In this document: positions 43,252-50,675 of the stretch, piece by piece
Layout: each line of letters begins with the position of its first letter
How positions within the stretch are numbered: the first letter of the stretch is position 1
IMG/VR virus record: IMGVR_UViG_3300025782_000006
Reading direction: 5' to 3' (one strand)
DNA: 54,252 nt
DNA from: an uncultured virus (IMG/VR IMGVR_UViG_3300025782_000006)
Lineage: Duplodnaviria; Heunggongvirae; Uroviricota; Caudoviricetes
The notes under the pieces: model-generated
Told to the model about the DNA's origin: nothing
Seen by the model: the letters and a program-made list of their open reading frames with translations, nothing else
Database searches by the model: none
Made by a program: the position numbers and the translations under genes

Positions 43252-44967
43252 TTAAACTGCGGGTGCTGGGGCAGCACCGGGAGCGCCCATGCCGCTAGGC
43301 TGTGTTGCACCTGCCATGTTTGGACCACCAGCAGCACCTTGTGCTAAGGGTGCTGGTCCTAGAGCTTCTAAGTCAGCATCAATACCACCCGGGCTTAGTC
43401 CAGTATTGCTGTTACGCAGAGATGGAGCTTCGGGTTGAGCAGATTCAACGTCACCACGCTCTTCAGAAAACATTTGTTCGTTTTCTGAAATTTCTTGCTC
43501 AGTCATACCTAAATAGCGTTTCATTAAGAAACGTTTGCTTAGATAAGGCAGTGGTTCTAACTGTACAAATGTATTAATACGTGCTTGGTCAATGTCAGCT
43601 TGACGATATTGTGCAAAGTTTTGTGGTTCATTGAACTGTAATTCAAACAGTGAGCCTTCAATATTAAAGCCTCTCCAACGCATAAACAGCTTAAATTCTG
43701 CATCTAGTTTATCGGCAATCAAACTCTGCAGACGCATACAGTATTGGTTAAAACGCCATTCTTGTATGAGTGCTTGTCCCACACGACCGTCATTATAACC
43801 TTGACTGCCATCTTCGGCTGTGGTAGGCAAATAGCTACTGGGAATACGTAAACCGCGGAATAACTTGTTGGTAAAGAAGCGCAAGTCAGTAATTTCGCCT
43901 AGGTTTTGACCGCCGGGGAATACGTCTACGCTACTACCACGTCCATCAGCTGTTACTGGGAAGAAGTAGTCTTCGTTTTGACTCAATGGATTGTATGTAG
44001 CATCCATCATGTTTTGGCTACCAGATCCTGCACCTGTTTGTGTAGGAATACGACGTTGATGTATTTCGTTTTTAATACGTTCAACAAACGCCATGGCCAT
44101 ATGACTTGGCATATTACCCACGTCAATTTTGAATACACGACGTTCTGGGGCACGTTGCACACGATAGATAATGATACTATCTTCAAGCAATTCTTTTTGT
44201 TTGAAAACTTTAAAAATGTTTTCTAATACAGAGTTACCAAATGGCCAATATACATCTAAGCCTTCAGTTAAACTAATATGAACTACGTGTTCAGCATTAA
44301 TAACTGCTTCATTACGTGCATGACTAAAGCGTGAGCCACCACCAAATGGTGCTTGTGGTTGTGTGTATGCCCCACTAGGACCGCCTGTCTGTGGGTGATT
44401 TACATAGGTATCTGTTGTTGAAACTGCGGTAACAGTTAAGTTTTGGAAGTTAGGATTTAGATCTTTGATCAAATACTGTTCGGGCTTTTTACCTTCACCT
44501 TCGTTGACAATAACTTTGGTAACCTTAGACATTTCTGTCCAAAATAGTTTAAAGTTTTCTGGGTCACGGATGAATACTTGGTCGCCGTACTTGAATACGT
44601 TACGAACAATTTTGAATATACGTTTGTTAAATTCGTTAAGTGCTACCCATTGTTGCAGTTGCTCGTTAATGATTTTGATTTCATTATCGCTGGGTTTGTC
44701 TTTGAATTTGATACGGAATGCTGTGTAGTTTTCTTGATTCTTTTGACTACAGAACTCAGCTAAAATATCTAGTGCAGCATTGACTTCAGAGTCCATGTCC
44801 ATTTGTTCGTATTGATTATAACGTTCAACACGATTTGGTTGACCAGTATAGACTTCAGGCAATTGACTTTGATAATTGCGGTAGCCAGGGTCTACAGCAC
44901 GCCCGTTTCCTAGCGGACTTACGTTACTGGGTAAATTTGATGTCTTAAAATATTTGCGCCATGTCAT
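43252..44967 (-). CDS. gp20: Portal vertex protein (T4 gp20-like)
   Basis: EVNAALD, LEDSIIIYRVQRAPERRVFKIDVGNMP, EDYFFP, LFRGLRIPSSYL. Confidence 0.97.
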   Translation of the reverse strand: MTWRKYFKTSNLPSNVSPLGNGRAVDPGYRNYQSQLPEVYTGQPNRVERYNQYEQMDMDSEVNAALDILAEFCSQKNQENYTAFRIKFKDKPSDNEIKIINEQLQQWVALNEFNKRIFKIVRNVFKYGDQVFIRDPENFKLFWTEMSKVTKVIVNEGEGKKPEQYLIKDLNPNFQNLTVTAVSTTDTYVNHPQTGGPSGAYTQPQAPFGGGSRFSHARNEAVINAEHVVHISLTEGLDVYWPFGNSVLENIFKVFKQKELLEDSIIIYRVQRAPERRVFKIDVGNMPSHMAMAFVERIKNEIHQRRIPTQTGAGSGSQNMMDATYNPLSQNEDYFFPVTADGRGSSVDVFPGGQNLGEITDLRFFTNKLFRGLRIPSSYLPTTAEDGSQGYNDGRVGQALIQEWRFNQYCMRLQSLIADKLDAEFKLFMRWRGFNIEGSLFELQFNEPQNFAQYRQADIDQARINTFVQLEPLPYLSKRFLMKRYLGMTEQEISENEQMFSEERGDVESAQPEAPSLRNSNTGLSPGGIDADLEALGPAPLAQGAAGGPNMAGATQPSGMGAPGAAPAPAV

Positions 44968-45449
44968 ACAGAGTGTCCGTTTCTTCTACGAGTTTCCATC
45001 ATTTTTTCTATTCGTTTTTGTTTATACACTGGATCTGCCCATAGATTTTTAACTGCATTTTTTATATTATTAGCATGAGTTTCTGCTTTAGGTAGTCTGT
45101 ATTTTTGTTTATGGTCTTCGGTCCTAACTTTCCCCAAATTACCCTCACTAATGCGTTTTTTAGCAGATTCTGAATGTTTCCATCCTGGTTCTGCTACCCA
45201 TCTTGTTATTTTTTTATTGTCGAGAACGCCGCCGTCAACTTTTCTTCCGTATTGTTTTATTAACTGATTTTCTAACTCGTATGCTTCTTTATTACTAAGT
45301 CCATCTTTAATTATAATACGTCTTTCGGGAGGAGGTATTTTTGTGTAAAGATGCTTTTCGCGAATCCTAGTTCCGCTACCTTTACCAATATAATATGGCT
45401 GACCATCTTCGTTGATGTACTGATAAACGTAATATTTGTTGCCGGCCAT
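44964..45449 (-). CDS. Free-standing GIY-YIG homing endonuclease with NUMOD3-like tail
   Basis: YYVYQY...PYYIGKGSGTR...E...LDN, then HSESAKKRIS. Its stop overlaps the portal start (ATGA). TATAAATA at 45471-45478. Confidence 0.85.
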   Translation of the reverse strand: MAGNKYYVYQYINEDGQPYYIGKGSGTRIREKHLYTKIPPPERRIIIKDGLSNKEAYELENQLIKQYGRKVDGGVLDNKKITRWVAEPGWKHSESAKKRISEGNLGKVRTEDHKQKYRLPKAETHANNIKNAVKNLWADPVYKQKRIEKMMETRRRNGHSV

Positions 45450-49126: not shown

Positions 49127-49771
49127 ATGAATGATTTTTATGTTTACATGTATCTACGAGAAGACGGAACTCCTTATTACGTAGGCAAAGGTAAAGGACG
49201 CCGCGCTTACCTCAATGGCCGCACCCCGCCAAAACCACCACAACTTGAACGTATAAAAATTGTTAAAGATAAGTTAACCGAAAACGAAGCATTTACATTA
49301 GAGTGTAGGTTGATATCAGATTACGGTCGTAAAGATTTAGGTACAGGTATTTTACATAATCGTACAGATGGTGGGGAGGGTGTAGCAGGCAGGATAGCAA
49401 CTACTGATTCTATTCAAAAAAGAATTGCCAAGAATACAGGAAAGAAACGTACACCCGAACAAAAACATCGAATGAGTGTAGCCCAAAAAGGTCGTAAAAA
49501 GATTGAATACACAGACGAACAGAAAGCTGAGATCTCTAAAAAAATATCAATTGCCCATAAAGGTAAACCCAAATCAGAAGAACACAAACAAAAACTATCA
49601 AAATATTTTACAGGAAGATCAAATGGACAACGCACAGAAGAAACTAAACAAAAGATGCGTAAACCCAAATCAGAAGAACACAAAGCTAACATGCGTAAGC
49701 CAAAGTCTCCAGAACATATTAAAGCAATATTAGAAGCCAAAGCAAAAAAGAAACTTTTATCAATGAGTTAA
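49127..49771 (+). CDS. Free-standing GIY-YIG homing endonuclease with NUMOD3-like repeats
   Basis: FYVYMY..EDGTPYYVGKGKGRR, LHNRTDGGEG, three KPKS(E/P)EH repeats (exact 24-nt repeat at 49565 and 49661). Confidence 0.88.
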   Translation: MNDFYVYMYLREDGTPYYVGKGKGRRAYLNGRTPPKPPQLERIKIVKDKLTENEAFTLECRLISDYGRKDLGTGILHNRTDGGEGVAGRIATTDSIQKRIAKNTGKKRTPEQKHRMSVAQKGRKKIEYTDEQKAEISKKISIAHKGKPKSEEHKQKLSKYFTGRSNGQRTEETKQKMRKPKSEEHKANMRKPKSPEHIKAILEAKAKKKLLSMS

Positions 49772-49819
49772 GATCACTGCGTGATCTGTTCTTTTCACTG
49801 CGTTCAAGAACATTTTTTA

Positions 49820-50245
49820 TATCATTGATGTTTTTCAGTATCATCCAGATTAATCAGTCACACTTTGCCCAGGTAACGGGCAAAGTAAGAATTGTAGCAT
49901 CATCCGAGTAGCACAATCACTTAGCGTTAGAGCAGTTACAGAGGCGGTTGTCCGGTACCTCGAGCTCCGTCTTTATACAACGGCGGTTAATATCAAATAC
50001 GCTAACATCTGATACCAACGTGTGCTATCGCTAGCACGTCTTTTTAGCCTTATCTATCTCTTCAAACAATCAAACCGCGGCAATTAGCGATCTTGGTCCT
50101 GTTAAGGATACTGATTGAGTGCTTGCTACAGCGGCAAGTCTTCCGTCCCTCTTATCATCGAGTTGTCATGGGCACACGATACTAAACCTGTGCGAGTCAA
50201 TACTGTTTAATGGGTTTTACTGCGGTTAGACTTTGTGTCTGAAGA
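49820..50245 (-). ncRNA. Candidate large structured non-coding RNA, family not recognised
   Basis: No ORF of 60 aa or more. About ten stems, a GNRA loop, G-U pairs that work only on the minus strand, and loop UUAGCG complementary to CGCUAA (pseudoknot). Confidence 0.6.
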
Positions 50246-50246
50246 G

Positions 50247-50675
50247 TTAAATCTTGTTGATAATGTGTGAGCCATGTACACGGACTTGTATGTGTCCGTT
50301 ATAATAATCGTTTGTTTCTAATACTCTGCGAGCAAATTGTTCTCTCGCTTCAATATAACTACATTCTGATTTTGATTTACAGTAATATAAAATTTCTCTT
50401 GTAAAGTTTTCAACACCCAGAGCTAGAATATCTTTTGTTAGTTCTGGGCTAGAGCCATAATAGGTTTGCCAATCTGAATCTATTTTACCACGAATTTTCT
50501 TACGTTTCTTCTTACCATTTTTTAGTTTAACCATTTTGTAAGTGGTCTTGCTAAATTTTGCCAATTTTTTTCCAATATACTTCCTGCCAGATAAGTTATT
50601 TGTGATCAAATAAACAAATCCGACACAGTCTTCGGGTAGTGTTTCTACTTGAGAGTTTTCGTAAATCCATGACAT
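50247..50675 (-). CDS. Small GIY-YIG-superfamily protein with a highly basic insert
   Basis: GFVYLITN..SGRKYIGKK, KLKNGKKKRKKIRGK, DWQTYYGSS, FTREIL, E..EQF, YYNG. Confidence 0.85.
   Translation of the reverse strand: MSWIYENSQVETLPEDCVGFVYLITNNLSGRKYIGKKLAKFSKTTYKMVKLKNGKKKRKKIRGKIDSDWQTYYGSSPELTKDILALGVENFTREILYYCKSKSECSYIEAREQFARRVLETNDYYNGHIQVRVHGSHIINKI

What the first reader, a model, noticed from the sequence alone, without database searches (positions are those of the whole stretch)
49820..50245. Candidate novel ~400-450 nt pseudoknotted ncRNA
Seen: this is the only long ORF-free gap in a densely coded window. Minus-strand stems, 5' to 3': GCACA-GGU/AUC-G-UGUGC (50193-50172); CUUGC/GCAAG (50138-50122); a multibranch closed by CAAUCAG/UUGAUUG (50117-50067) holding UCCU-UAAC-AGGA and GAUCGC/GCGGUU; GUGCUA-GCGA-UAGCAC (GNRA loop, 50037-50022); a 14-bp stem GUUGGUAUCAGAUG/UAUUUGAUAUUAAC with four G-U pairs (50019-49986), whose loop UUAGCG matches CGCUAA at 49926-49921 (pseudoknot); CCGUU/GACGG; nested GAGC/GCUC and GAGGU/GCCUC; AUUGU-GC/GC-U-ACAAU; ACUUUGCCC/GGGCAAAGU (49886-49862). 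GAUGAU recurs three times. The G-U bias points to a minus-strand RNA. I see no tmRNA, RNase P, or group I/II intron hallmarks. Inference: a large structured phage RNA (ribozyme, RNP scaffold, or ColE1 RNAII-like replication primer ending at the GNA hairpins).
Basis: partly seen in the sequence, partly recalled or inferred. Interest (0 to 1): 0.85.

Follow-up and report, generated by a model that had tools for sequence, protein, structure and literature searches.

The report
Phage RNA with self-matching twin repeats
This heavily folded RNA of an uncultured giant phage belongs to a family of unknown function described in 2010, but its overlooked tail carries two short sequences that stay identical to each other as they change between phages, which suggests the RNA grips the DNA of its own gene, perhaps to start DNA copying.

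Summary
Real, but not new as a motif. The 5' 135 nt match Rfam Polynucleobacter-1 (89 bits, cut-off 37). The 2010 paper's own ~280-nt alignment already shows the 14-bp stem and the pseudoknot. Covariation supports a ~375-nt minus-strand RNA (about 50210-49835) with four pseudoknots, although its folding energy does not beat shuffles.

Not found in print: the 3' end holds two 7-nt direct repeats flanking a hairpin. They were identical in 349 of 352 distinct relatives across 17 variants (54 expected by chance). No third complementary site and no nuclease residue tracks them. The RNA has three exchangeable subtypes and one copy per record checked. It points into the virion-gene cluster and is followed by DNA-type GNA mini-hairpins. 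The upstream GIY-YIG gene is a neighbour, not an obligate partner. Rfam cow-rumen-2 looks like a distant homolog with the same, looser, twin arrangement.

Best reading (0.4): repeat 1 of the nascent RNA pairs with the template strand of repeat 2 and seeds a ColE1/T4-type priming R-loop. No transcript or origin activity was shown. This scan found the RNA before on other DNA.

The parts
49835..50210 (-). Conserved structured RNA, subtype A (full-length Polynucleobacter-1); ends inferred from conservation, not mapped
   Evidence: profile matches, covariation
50064..50198 (-). 5' domain = Rfam RF01718 Polynucleobacter-1 model, positions 1-141
   Evidence: 89 bits, cut-off 37, E 1e-17
50128..50206 (-). 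Two 5' pseudoknots: 50197-50195 with 50186-50188; 50206-50203 with 50128-50131
   Evidence: pair 50197:50186 G=61, pair 50206:50128 G=60; 92% and 78% of cells paired
49920..50019 (-). Core domain: 14-bp stem, loop pseudoknot 50005-50000:49921-49926, second pseudoknot 49981-49977:49947-49951, nested GAGC/GCUC and GAGG/CCUC helices; sub-threshold match to Rfam cow-rumen-2
   Evidence: stem and first pseudoknot already in the 2010 alignment; RF02947 20.3 bits against cut-off 66
49899..49909 (-). Twin repeat copy 1 (ACUC + heptamer GGAUGAU at 49905-49899)
   Evidence: identity covariation 49905:49846, 49901:49842, 49899:49840
49862..49886 (-). Hairpin between the twin repeats
   Evidence: 90% of cells paired, 3 of 9 pairs with double changes
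49840..49850 (-). Twin repeat copy 2 (AUCU + heptamer GGAUGAU at 49846-49840)
49787..49812 (-). Downstream hairpin 1: tandem G-A mismatch stem with a C-GCA-G loop; probably read as single-stranded DNA (inferred)
   Evidence: sequence; this type in 238 of 301 distinct downstream regions
49771..49787 (-). Downstream hairpin 2: perfect 7-bp stem with a C-GCA-G triloop
   Evidence: C(GNA)G loop in 132 of 234 such hairpins
50247..50675 (-). Stand-alone SegE-type GIY-YIG nuclease domain (142 aa) with a long basic beta-hairpin; usual upstream neighbour, not an obligate partner
   Evidence: PF19835 E 3.5e-32; model pLDDT 95; I-TevI catalytic domain had the highest Foldseek probability, 0.96, at E 0.16

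Best explanation
A cis-acting, ColE1-RNA-II-like pre-primer of T4-type giant phages. SHOWN by comparison: a multi-pseudoknot RNA ending in repeat 1, hairpin, repeat 2, with the two heptamers kept identical. INFERRED step 1: the RNA is made early, as the tail of the gp46-containing operon or from its own sigma70 promoter. INFERRED step 2: as RNA polymerase crosses repeat 2, repeat 1 of the folded nascent RNA pairs with the template strand there. This is the simplest base-pairing that demands identity rather than complementarity, and it would seed a persistent RNA-DNA hybrid. INFERRED step 3: the displaced strand exposes the GNA mini-hairpins to primase or helicase, and the RNA 3' end primes DNA synthesis into the virion-gene cluster. 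I put the cis-pairing step at about 0.55 and replication initiation as its purpose at about 0.4.
For: Twin identity: 136 of 138, 307 of 309, 349 of 352 with 17 variants and 53.8 expected. On a tree built without the repeat columns there are 24, 9 and 10 joint switches at three positions. The only strong partner of each repeat column is its twin. No own-variant complement recurs nearby, and no own-variant inverted pair recurs across three genomes (1 of 3, like other variants). Spacing is 47-66 nt with no helical phasing. The flanks differ constantly (CUC against UCU), which argues against simple gene conversion. Four of six mismatched cases are G in copy 1 against A in copy 2, the direction a G-T wobble allows, and none is the reverse. 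In two complete rumen phage genomes, different cow-rumen-2 copies carry different twins, each matching itself. Nuclease-free loci have 11-12/12 sigma70 promoters just upstream on the same strand. There is one copy in 5 of 5 records, and subtypes replace one another between fixed borders. The downstream hairpins are GNA triloops with 7 G-T in 1830 pairs, a motif more stable in DNA than RNA and found at phage G4, ssiA and N4 start sites (PMC13037366 passages). Precedent: an rG stretch of ColE1 RNA pairs with a dC stretch of the template, and T4 oriF/oriG use promoter-made R-loops (PMC4412123 passages).
Against: No transcript, hybrid or origin activity was observed. Cumulative GC skew has no inflection at the RNA in two near-complete genomes. 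At fourfold sites the RNA-sense strand is the C-richer one in most bins, which weakly opposes a simple leading strand from here and is confounded by gene class. The wobble asymmetry rests on about three independent events, and two mismatches (A/T at position 7) are not wobbles. Positions 5' of the heptamer show mixed or opposite asymmetry. Seven base pairs is a short seed. The rumen relatives mostly lack GNA hairpins (31 of 46 have none), occur up to four times per genome, have shorter twins, and some match poorly (L977, L966, L936). The G-T count in hairpin 2 was biased by picking the best stem, and several RNA helices are equally G-U-poor.
Confidence: 0.4

Rival explanations
1. A cis-acting transcription control RNA at the early/late border: the nascent RNA engages RNA polymerase, or its hybrid at repeat 2, to terminate, pause or antiterminate, or to license the adjacent late promoter. 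It may use the same copy-1/template pairing but without priming.
For: The RNA points into the virion cluster in the window and in G001 and G002. TAAATA lies on the same strand within 180 nt downstream in 48 of 80 type A loci (17 in shuffles; 1 on the other strand) and 30 of 34 rumen loci (14 in shuffles). Several rumen copies lie between a sigma70-like promoter and a baseplate-hub or tail-tube gene. Several copies per genome suit a regulator.
Against: TAAATA follows only 5 of 49 type B and 2 of 7 type C loci. In the window and many relatives the next genes are convergent. It does not explain GNA mini-hairpins on both strands. For clamp loading, a primer-template junction must lie downstream of the promoter it activates (PMC2988020 passage), and here it would lie upstream.
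Confidence: 0.22
2. A scaffold or decoy RNA whose twin motifs bind the two subunits of a dimeric protein, either the neighbouring GIY-YIG nuclease or another phage or host protein.
For: The RNA lies within about 1.3 kb downstream of the nuclease gene in 78 of 80 loci, and 209 of 234 distinct RNAs have it directly upstream. The protein has a long basic hairpin. Unphased spacing suits an RNA site.
Against: No residue tracks the heptamer (best MI 0.24 and 0.32 bits against entropies near 1.0), and identical or 98.6%-identical proteins flank different subtypes and heptamers. Four of five tested records have the RNA but no PF19835 gene, although they are 5-26% complete. Five of five cultured relatives of the nuclease have no long gap after it. 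None of 51 rumen-pattern loci has it within 1 kb. A tolerant protein would permit mixed twins, yet these are about 1-2%. Different twins coexist in one genome.
Confidence: 0.15
3. A ribozyme or RNA-only assembly in which the twins are two equivalent substrate or docking strands.
For: Size, four pseudoknots and invariant core nucleotides are of the kind seen in catalytic and ornate RNAs (general knowledge).
Against: No Rfam ribozyme, intron or RNase P match. No internal guide complementary to the heptamer co-varies. Antiparallel pairing cannot explain identity at three positions with one offset.
Confidence: 0.12
4. A two-guide RNA, TIGR-like in logic, whose identical guides read the two strands of a symmetric external target, for example in a competing phage.
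For: Pseudo-symmetric layout, variable 7-9-nt segments with fixed flanks, subtype exchange at one locus, and a nuclease next door.
Against: No array, no box C/D flanks, low guide diversity (17 variants, three near-fixed positions), no recurring own-variant palindromic site in three genomes, and no obligate nuclease. Host genomes could not be searched.
Confidence: 0.07

Closest known systems
Polynucleobacter-1 RNA motif (Rfam RF01718; Weinberg et al. 2010, PMC2864571)
   Same: Model matched full length at 89 bits. The paper's Additional file 5 alignment covers about 280 nt to the end of the pseudoknot, with the same long stem, pseudoknot and GAGG/CCUC hairpin. Function unknown.
   Different: That alignment stops near window 49920 and draws one pseudoknot. 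It lacks the twin-repeat domain and the three further pseudoknots. Subtypes B and C do not hit RF01718. The paper's gene-context files could not be read.
cow-rumen-2 RNA motif (Rfam RF02947)
   Same: Full-model match exactly over 50019-49920, with the UAGC loop, GCCGCC, ACAGGAUGACC-like loop and GUAA in the same order. True members also run core, copy 1, hairpin, copy 2 with matching twins (longest shared word 5.33 nt against 4.00 +/- 0.20 shuffled, n=27).
   Different: 20.3 bits against cut-off 66. Profile cross-hits are weak (best E 0.006 and 0.036). Different 5' domain, own promoter, up to four copies per genome, no GIY-YIG neighbour, and mostly no GNA hairpins.
ColE1 RNA II pre-primer (PMC5043065, PMC4412123 passages) and T4 oriF/oriG R-loop origins
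   Same: A folded transcript proposed to pair an upstream RNA segment with the downstream template strand, followed by signals that work on single-stranded DNA.
   Different: Phage, not plasmid. No sequence match in the plasmid collection. A variable heptamer rather than a G run. No antisense RNA I was sought. Hybrid formation is not shown.
OMEGA/HEARO and TIGR-Tas RNA-guided nucleases
   Same: A structured RNA beside a compact nuclease gene, with two short variable segments.
   Different: GIY-YIG rather than IscB, TnpB or Nop-domain protein. Association not obligate. No array. The two segments are identical, whereas TIGR spacers A and B show no obvious covariation (PMC12045711 passage).

Membership tests
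Polynucleobacter-1 (RF01718) | Score above the Rfam gathering cut-off over the whole model | tested here: met
   89 bits against 37, model 1-141
Polynucleobacter-1 (RF01718) | Long stem, loop pseudoknot and GAGG/CCUC hairpin of the 2010 alignment | tested here: met
   compare
cow-rumen-2 (RF02947) | Score above the gathering cut-off | tested here: not met
   20.3 bits against 66; 4 of 20 loci gave sub-threshold hits at the same module
cow-rumen-2 (RF02947) | Same conserved motifs in the same order (homology short of membership) | tested here: inconclusive
   motif order matches and the twin layout is shared, but profile E-values are only 0.006-0.75
ColE1-type RNA II pre-primer | Persistent RNA-DNA hybrid at the origin that primes DNA synthesis | not testable with these tools
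   needs an in vitro hybrid assay and a replicon assay
ColE1-type RNA II pre-primer | Sequence homology to ColE1-type origins | tested here: not met
   no match in 72,556 plasmids at E <= 1
ColE1-type RNA II pre-primer | Own promoter upstream of the RNA | tested here: inconclusive
   none in the window; 11-12/12 sigma70 matches in nuclease-free L105, L188 and L882
ColE1-type RNA II pre-primer | Antisense RNA I control | not tested
   not sought beyond the promoter scan
OMEGA/HEARO RNA-guided nuclease | IscB, IsrB or TnpB-type nuclease, and an Rfam HEARO match | tested here: not met
   the protein is PF19835 GIY-YIG; no HEARO hit
OMEGA/HEARO RNA-guided nuclease | Obligate, co-evolving nuclease-RNA pair | tested here: not met
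TIGR-Tas | Array of repeated dual-spacer units with box C/D flanks | tested here: not met
   single unit, one copy per record; flanks are ACUC and AUCU
TIGR-Tas | Nop-domain protein nearby | not tested
   none among the neighbours scanned; the genome was not searched for it
Group I/II intron, RNase P, tmRNA, GOLLD, ROOL | Rfam or ARAGORN match | tested here: not met
Csr/Rsm sponge (TwoAYGGAY-like) | Invariant GGA in both motifs | tested here: not met
   GGA begins the heptamer in only 147 of 349 identical pairs

The most novel reading that the evidence does not exclude
Polynucleobacter-1, its B and C subtypes and cow-rumen-2 are one widespread superfamily of self-targeting phage RNAs. Each carries a built-in guide (copy 1) that recognises the template strand of its own gene end (copy 2), opens an R-loop, and so acts as a portable, exchangeable, protein-initiator-free origin or late-gene switch for T4-type giant phages.
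Probability: 0.3. Interest if true: 0.88.

Novelty: new variant of a known kind. Interest (0 to 1): 0.6.

Why it matters
It gives two orphan Rfam motifs a likely common core, a phage home, full-length boundaries and a sharp test: single mutants of either heptamer should fail, and matching double mutants should recover. Covariation by identity is a signal that base-pair covariation tools do not interpret, so other self-targeting RNAs may have been missed the same way. If the origin reading holds, it names a replication start signal for an abundant uncultured group of freshwater and rumen giant phages.

Tried and rejected
Folding energy against shuffles: not significant for the whole span or the 5' and core domains; only the twin-hairpin part stood out, on both strands. 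BLASTN of subtypes A, B and C against cultured phages, and of A against plasmids: no match. A core-motif scan of bacterial genomes gave mostly chance hits; 2 of 120 loci matched the profiles. GC-skew inflection at the RNA: none. A third complementary site or a palindromic target: none recurring. Nuclease residues tracking the heptamer or subtype: none. A Holliday-junction-resolvase-like gene that precedes the RNA in L114 and L152 had no tblastn hit in G000, G001 or G002; whether it substitutes for the GIY-YIG gene is open. Considered and set aside: helically phased iterons (spacing 47-66 nt, continuous); gene conversion (fixed flanking differences); a Csr sponge; and resemblance to a DnaA box, a -10 element or box C (recalled motifs; broken by several variants). 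A single-sequence fold of the nuclease was useless (pLDDT 43). An AGGCA motif upstream of many RNAs was not enriched genome-wide before starts or after stops. Expression data were not obtained, so transcription of the window's RNA is unverified.

Full report
SETTING. The window is the virion-gene cluster of an uncultured T4-type large phage, with portal, major head, sheath, tube and terminase genes. The gap 49772-50246 lies between a minus-strand operon (SbcC/gp46-like, two radical SAM genes, a 142-aa GIY-YIG gene) and a short convergent block (baseplate hub, a 72-aa ORF, a homing-endonuclease-like ORF). Two other apparent gaps are filled by small ORFs.

IT IS A KNOWN MOTIF. Rfam gives one hit above cut-off in the window: Polynucleobacter-1, 50198-50064, minus strand, 89 bits. 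The main text of PMC2864571 lists the motif only in a table (passages). Its Additional file 5 holds an alignment in which many rows run to about 280 nt, with the long stem, the GAGG/CCUC hairpin and the loop pseudoknot drawn (parts 206-207). Additional files 1, 3 and 7 could not be read, nor the supplement of PMC5737381; they may describe gene context or cow-rumen-2 in ways that bear on novelty. Searches that found no description of the twin repeats or of a function: (listings and abstract starts only), and passages of bioRxiv 10.64898/2026.09.22.753630.

THE STRUCTURE IS REAL. Folding energy does not beat shuffles, as can happen with pseudoknotted RNAs, but covariation is strong. In 81 non-redundant subtype A sequences, 15 column pairs exceeded the maximum of 20 tree-based null alignments. 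That null is my own rough implementation, not R-scape. Ten of the 15 are Watson-Crick pairs, two are identity pairs and three are indirect. On an independent MAFFT alignment of 41 of them, 88.2% of cells paired (75.0 +/- 0.4 shuffled; 33-44% when slid) and 59 of 85 pairs had double changes. The structure counted there was drawn partly from these same data. Two further pseudoknots lie at the 5' end. Subtype B shows the same helices with fewer effective sequences.

DISTRIBUTION. Of the 80 best viral loci of the nuclease, 78 carry the RNA within about 1.3 kb downstream; the other two end within 123 nt of the gene. They fall into three subtypes sharing the 3' end. From the RNA side, 69 of 80 loci had the nuclease within 1.2 kb; four were too short to judge and seven lacked it. 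Four of five such records tested had no PF19835 gene, but they are fragments. There is one copy in 5 of 5 records. Identical or 98.6%-identical nucleases flank different subtypes. Pairwise alignments place the swap borders at the nuclease stop codon and at repeat 2 or the hairpins, so the RNA behaves as an exchangeable cassette. Distant cultured relatives of the nuclease have no long gap after the gene (5 of 5 inspected, of 494 records). Nuclease-free loci L105, L188 and L882 have 11-12/12 sigma70 promoters ending about 30 nt before the RNA on the same strand; 1 of 209 nuclease-adjacent loci reached 10/12. This supports the strand and independent transcription there.

THE TWIN REPEATS. Positions 49905, 49901 and 49899 co-vary with 49846, 49842 and 49840 by identity. 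The heptamers were identical in 136 of 138 non-redundant loci. They were identical in 307 of 309 distinct 3' domains, after I set aside four of 313 by eye as unrelated hits. They were identical in 349 of 352 single-candidate loci, with 17 variants and 53.8 expected if independent. That last count dropped loci with no or several candidate pairs, including three mismatched ones seen elsewhere (L618, L734, L759). The six mismatches seen in all are G/A four times and A/T twice. Minimum joint changes on a tree built without the repeats were 24, 9 and 10. In one search six loci gave no candidate pair under my anchors. All six showed matching twins by eye, three with heptamers not seen otherwise, and five showed copy 1 carrying one extra base just before the heptamer. 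Spacing is 47-66 nt and unphased. No third complementary site, palindromic target or nuclease residue tracks the heptamer.

DOWNSTREAM HAIRPINS. A tandem-G-A hairpin follows in 238 of 301 distinct regions. A second hairpin follows in 234 of these; 132 have a C(GNA)G triloop and 24 a GNRA loop, with 7 G-T in 1830 pairs (a count biased by stem choice). A GC-GNA-GC motif lies on the opposite strand in 156 of 301. PMC13037366 (passages) reports such mini-hairpins as far more stable in DNA than RNA and present at G4, ssiA and N4 initiation sites.

LINK TO COW-RUMEN-2. The core 50019-49920 matches RF02947 over the whole model but far below cut-off. A motif from that consensus fetched 51 viral loci; 46 carry the core, and 20 of 20 submitted pass the cut-off. 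None has the nuclease within 1 kb. Most have a sigma70-like promoter at a fixed place (38 of 46 could be anchored; scores 8-11 of 12), and some precede baseplate-hub or tail-tube genes. They show core, copy 1, hairpin, copy 2, with longest shared words of 5.33 nt against 4.00 +/- 0.20 shuffled (n=27; three unanchored rows dropped, one mis-anchored row kept). Complete genomes hold up to four copies. Seven of the eight copies fetched from G010 and G011 were displayed: within one genome the twins differ between copies yet match within a copy, except L977, which matches poorly. Profile cross-hits are weak, so homology is likely, not proven.

MECHANISM. Identity at three positions with one offset cannot come from antiparallel pairing between the copies. 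It can come from one copy pairing with the complement of the other, from a shared reader, or from copying. Fixed flanking differences argue against copying. The rarity of mixed states, rapid switching beside unchanged nucleases, and different twins in one genome argue against a single protein reader. The remaining simple reading is copy 1 RNA pairing with the template strand at copy 2 (inference). ColE1 offers a precedent, an rG stretch of the RNA pairing with a dC stretch of the template, and T4 uses promoter-made R-loop origins (PMC4412123 and PMC5043065 passages). Against an origin: no skew inflection, a neutral-site skew of the unexpected sign, and multi-copy rumen relatives mostly without mini-hairpins. 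A transcription-control role is the main rival, because the RNA points into the virion cluster and a TAAATA late-promoter-like motif often follows. The T4 late consensus is recalled; PMC2988020 passages give the clamp-loading polarity rule.

VERDICT. A real RNA and a member of a motif known since 2010, so not the novel family proposed. The full-length element has an undescribed self-matching twin domain, exchangeable subtypes and a probable second Rfam relative, and these make its function directly testable. Earlier notes of this scan reported the RNA, the non-obligate nuclease and a ColE1-like idea on other DNA. I tested the first two here. The twin-identity and cow-rumen-2 results did not appear in the lines those look-ups returned. 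Interest 0.6.

Noticed in passing
window 44964-45449 (-) and 49127-49771 (+): Two further homing-endonuclease-like ORFs (phrog_314 and unknown-function families), the second ending on hairpin 2.
   Followed up: no
window 50247-50675: PHROG 447 and many GenBank records call this family 'NAD synthetase', but Pfam and the model indicate a GIY-YIG catalytic domain with a basic beta-hairpin at residues 40-66; one place per record in 494 cultured phage records.
   Followed up: partly
Rfam RF01718: The model has 141 positions, whereas the authors' 2010 alignment runs to about 280 nt with a pseudoknot.
   Followed up: yes
L093, L152, L824, L833, L880, just upstream of the RNA: Short tandem AGGCAC-containing repeats (four copies at a 10-nt period in L093) in loci where another gene precedes the RNA; AGGCA also precedes many other copies. 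Unexplained.
   Followed up: partly
L114 and L152, upstream ORFs: A resolvase-like ORF (family judged by eye from a recalled motif) takes the place of the GIY-YIG gene before the RNA; no homolog found in G000, G001 or G002.
   Followed up: partly
window 50240-50228 (-): Small AGAC/GUCU hairpin between the nuclease stop codon and the RNA, seen only in close relatives.
   Followed up: no
   Followed up: no
whole window: ATAAATA occurs 19 times, 14 on the minus strand, mostly just before virion genes; a likely late promoter.
   Followed up: partly
L298 and L339: The only true RNA matches among 120 bacterial-genome loci; L298 is a 1.7-kb contig in a metagenome bin, probably phage DNA.
   Followed up: no
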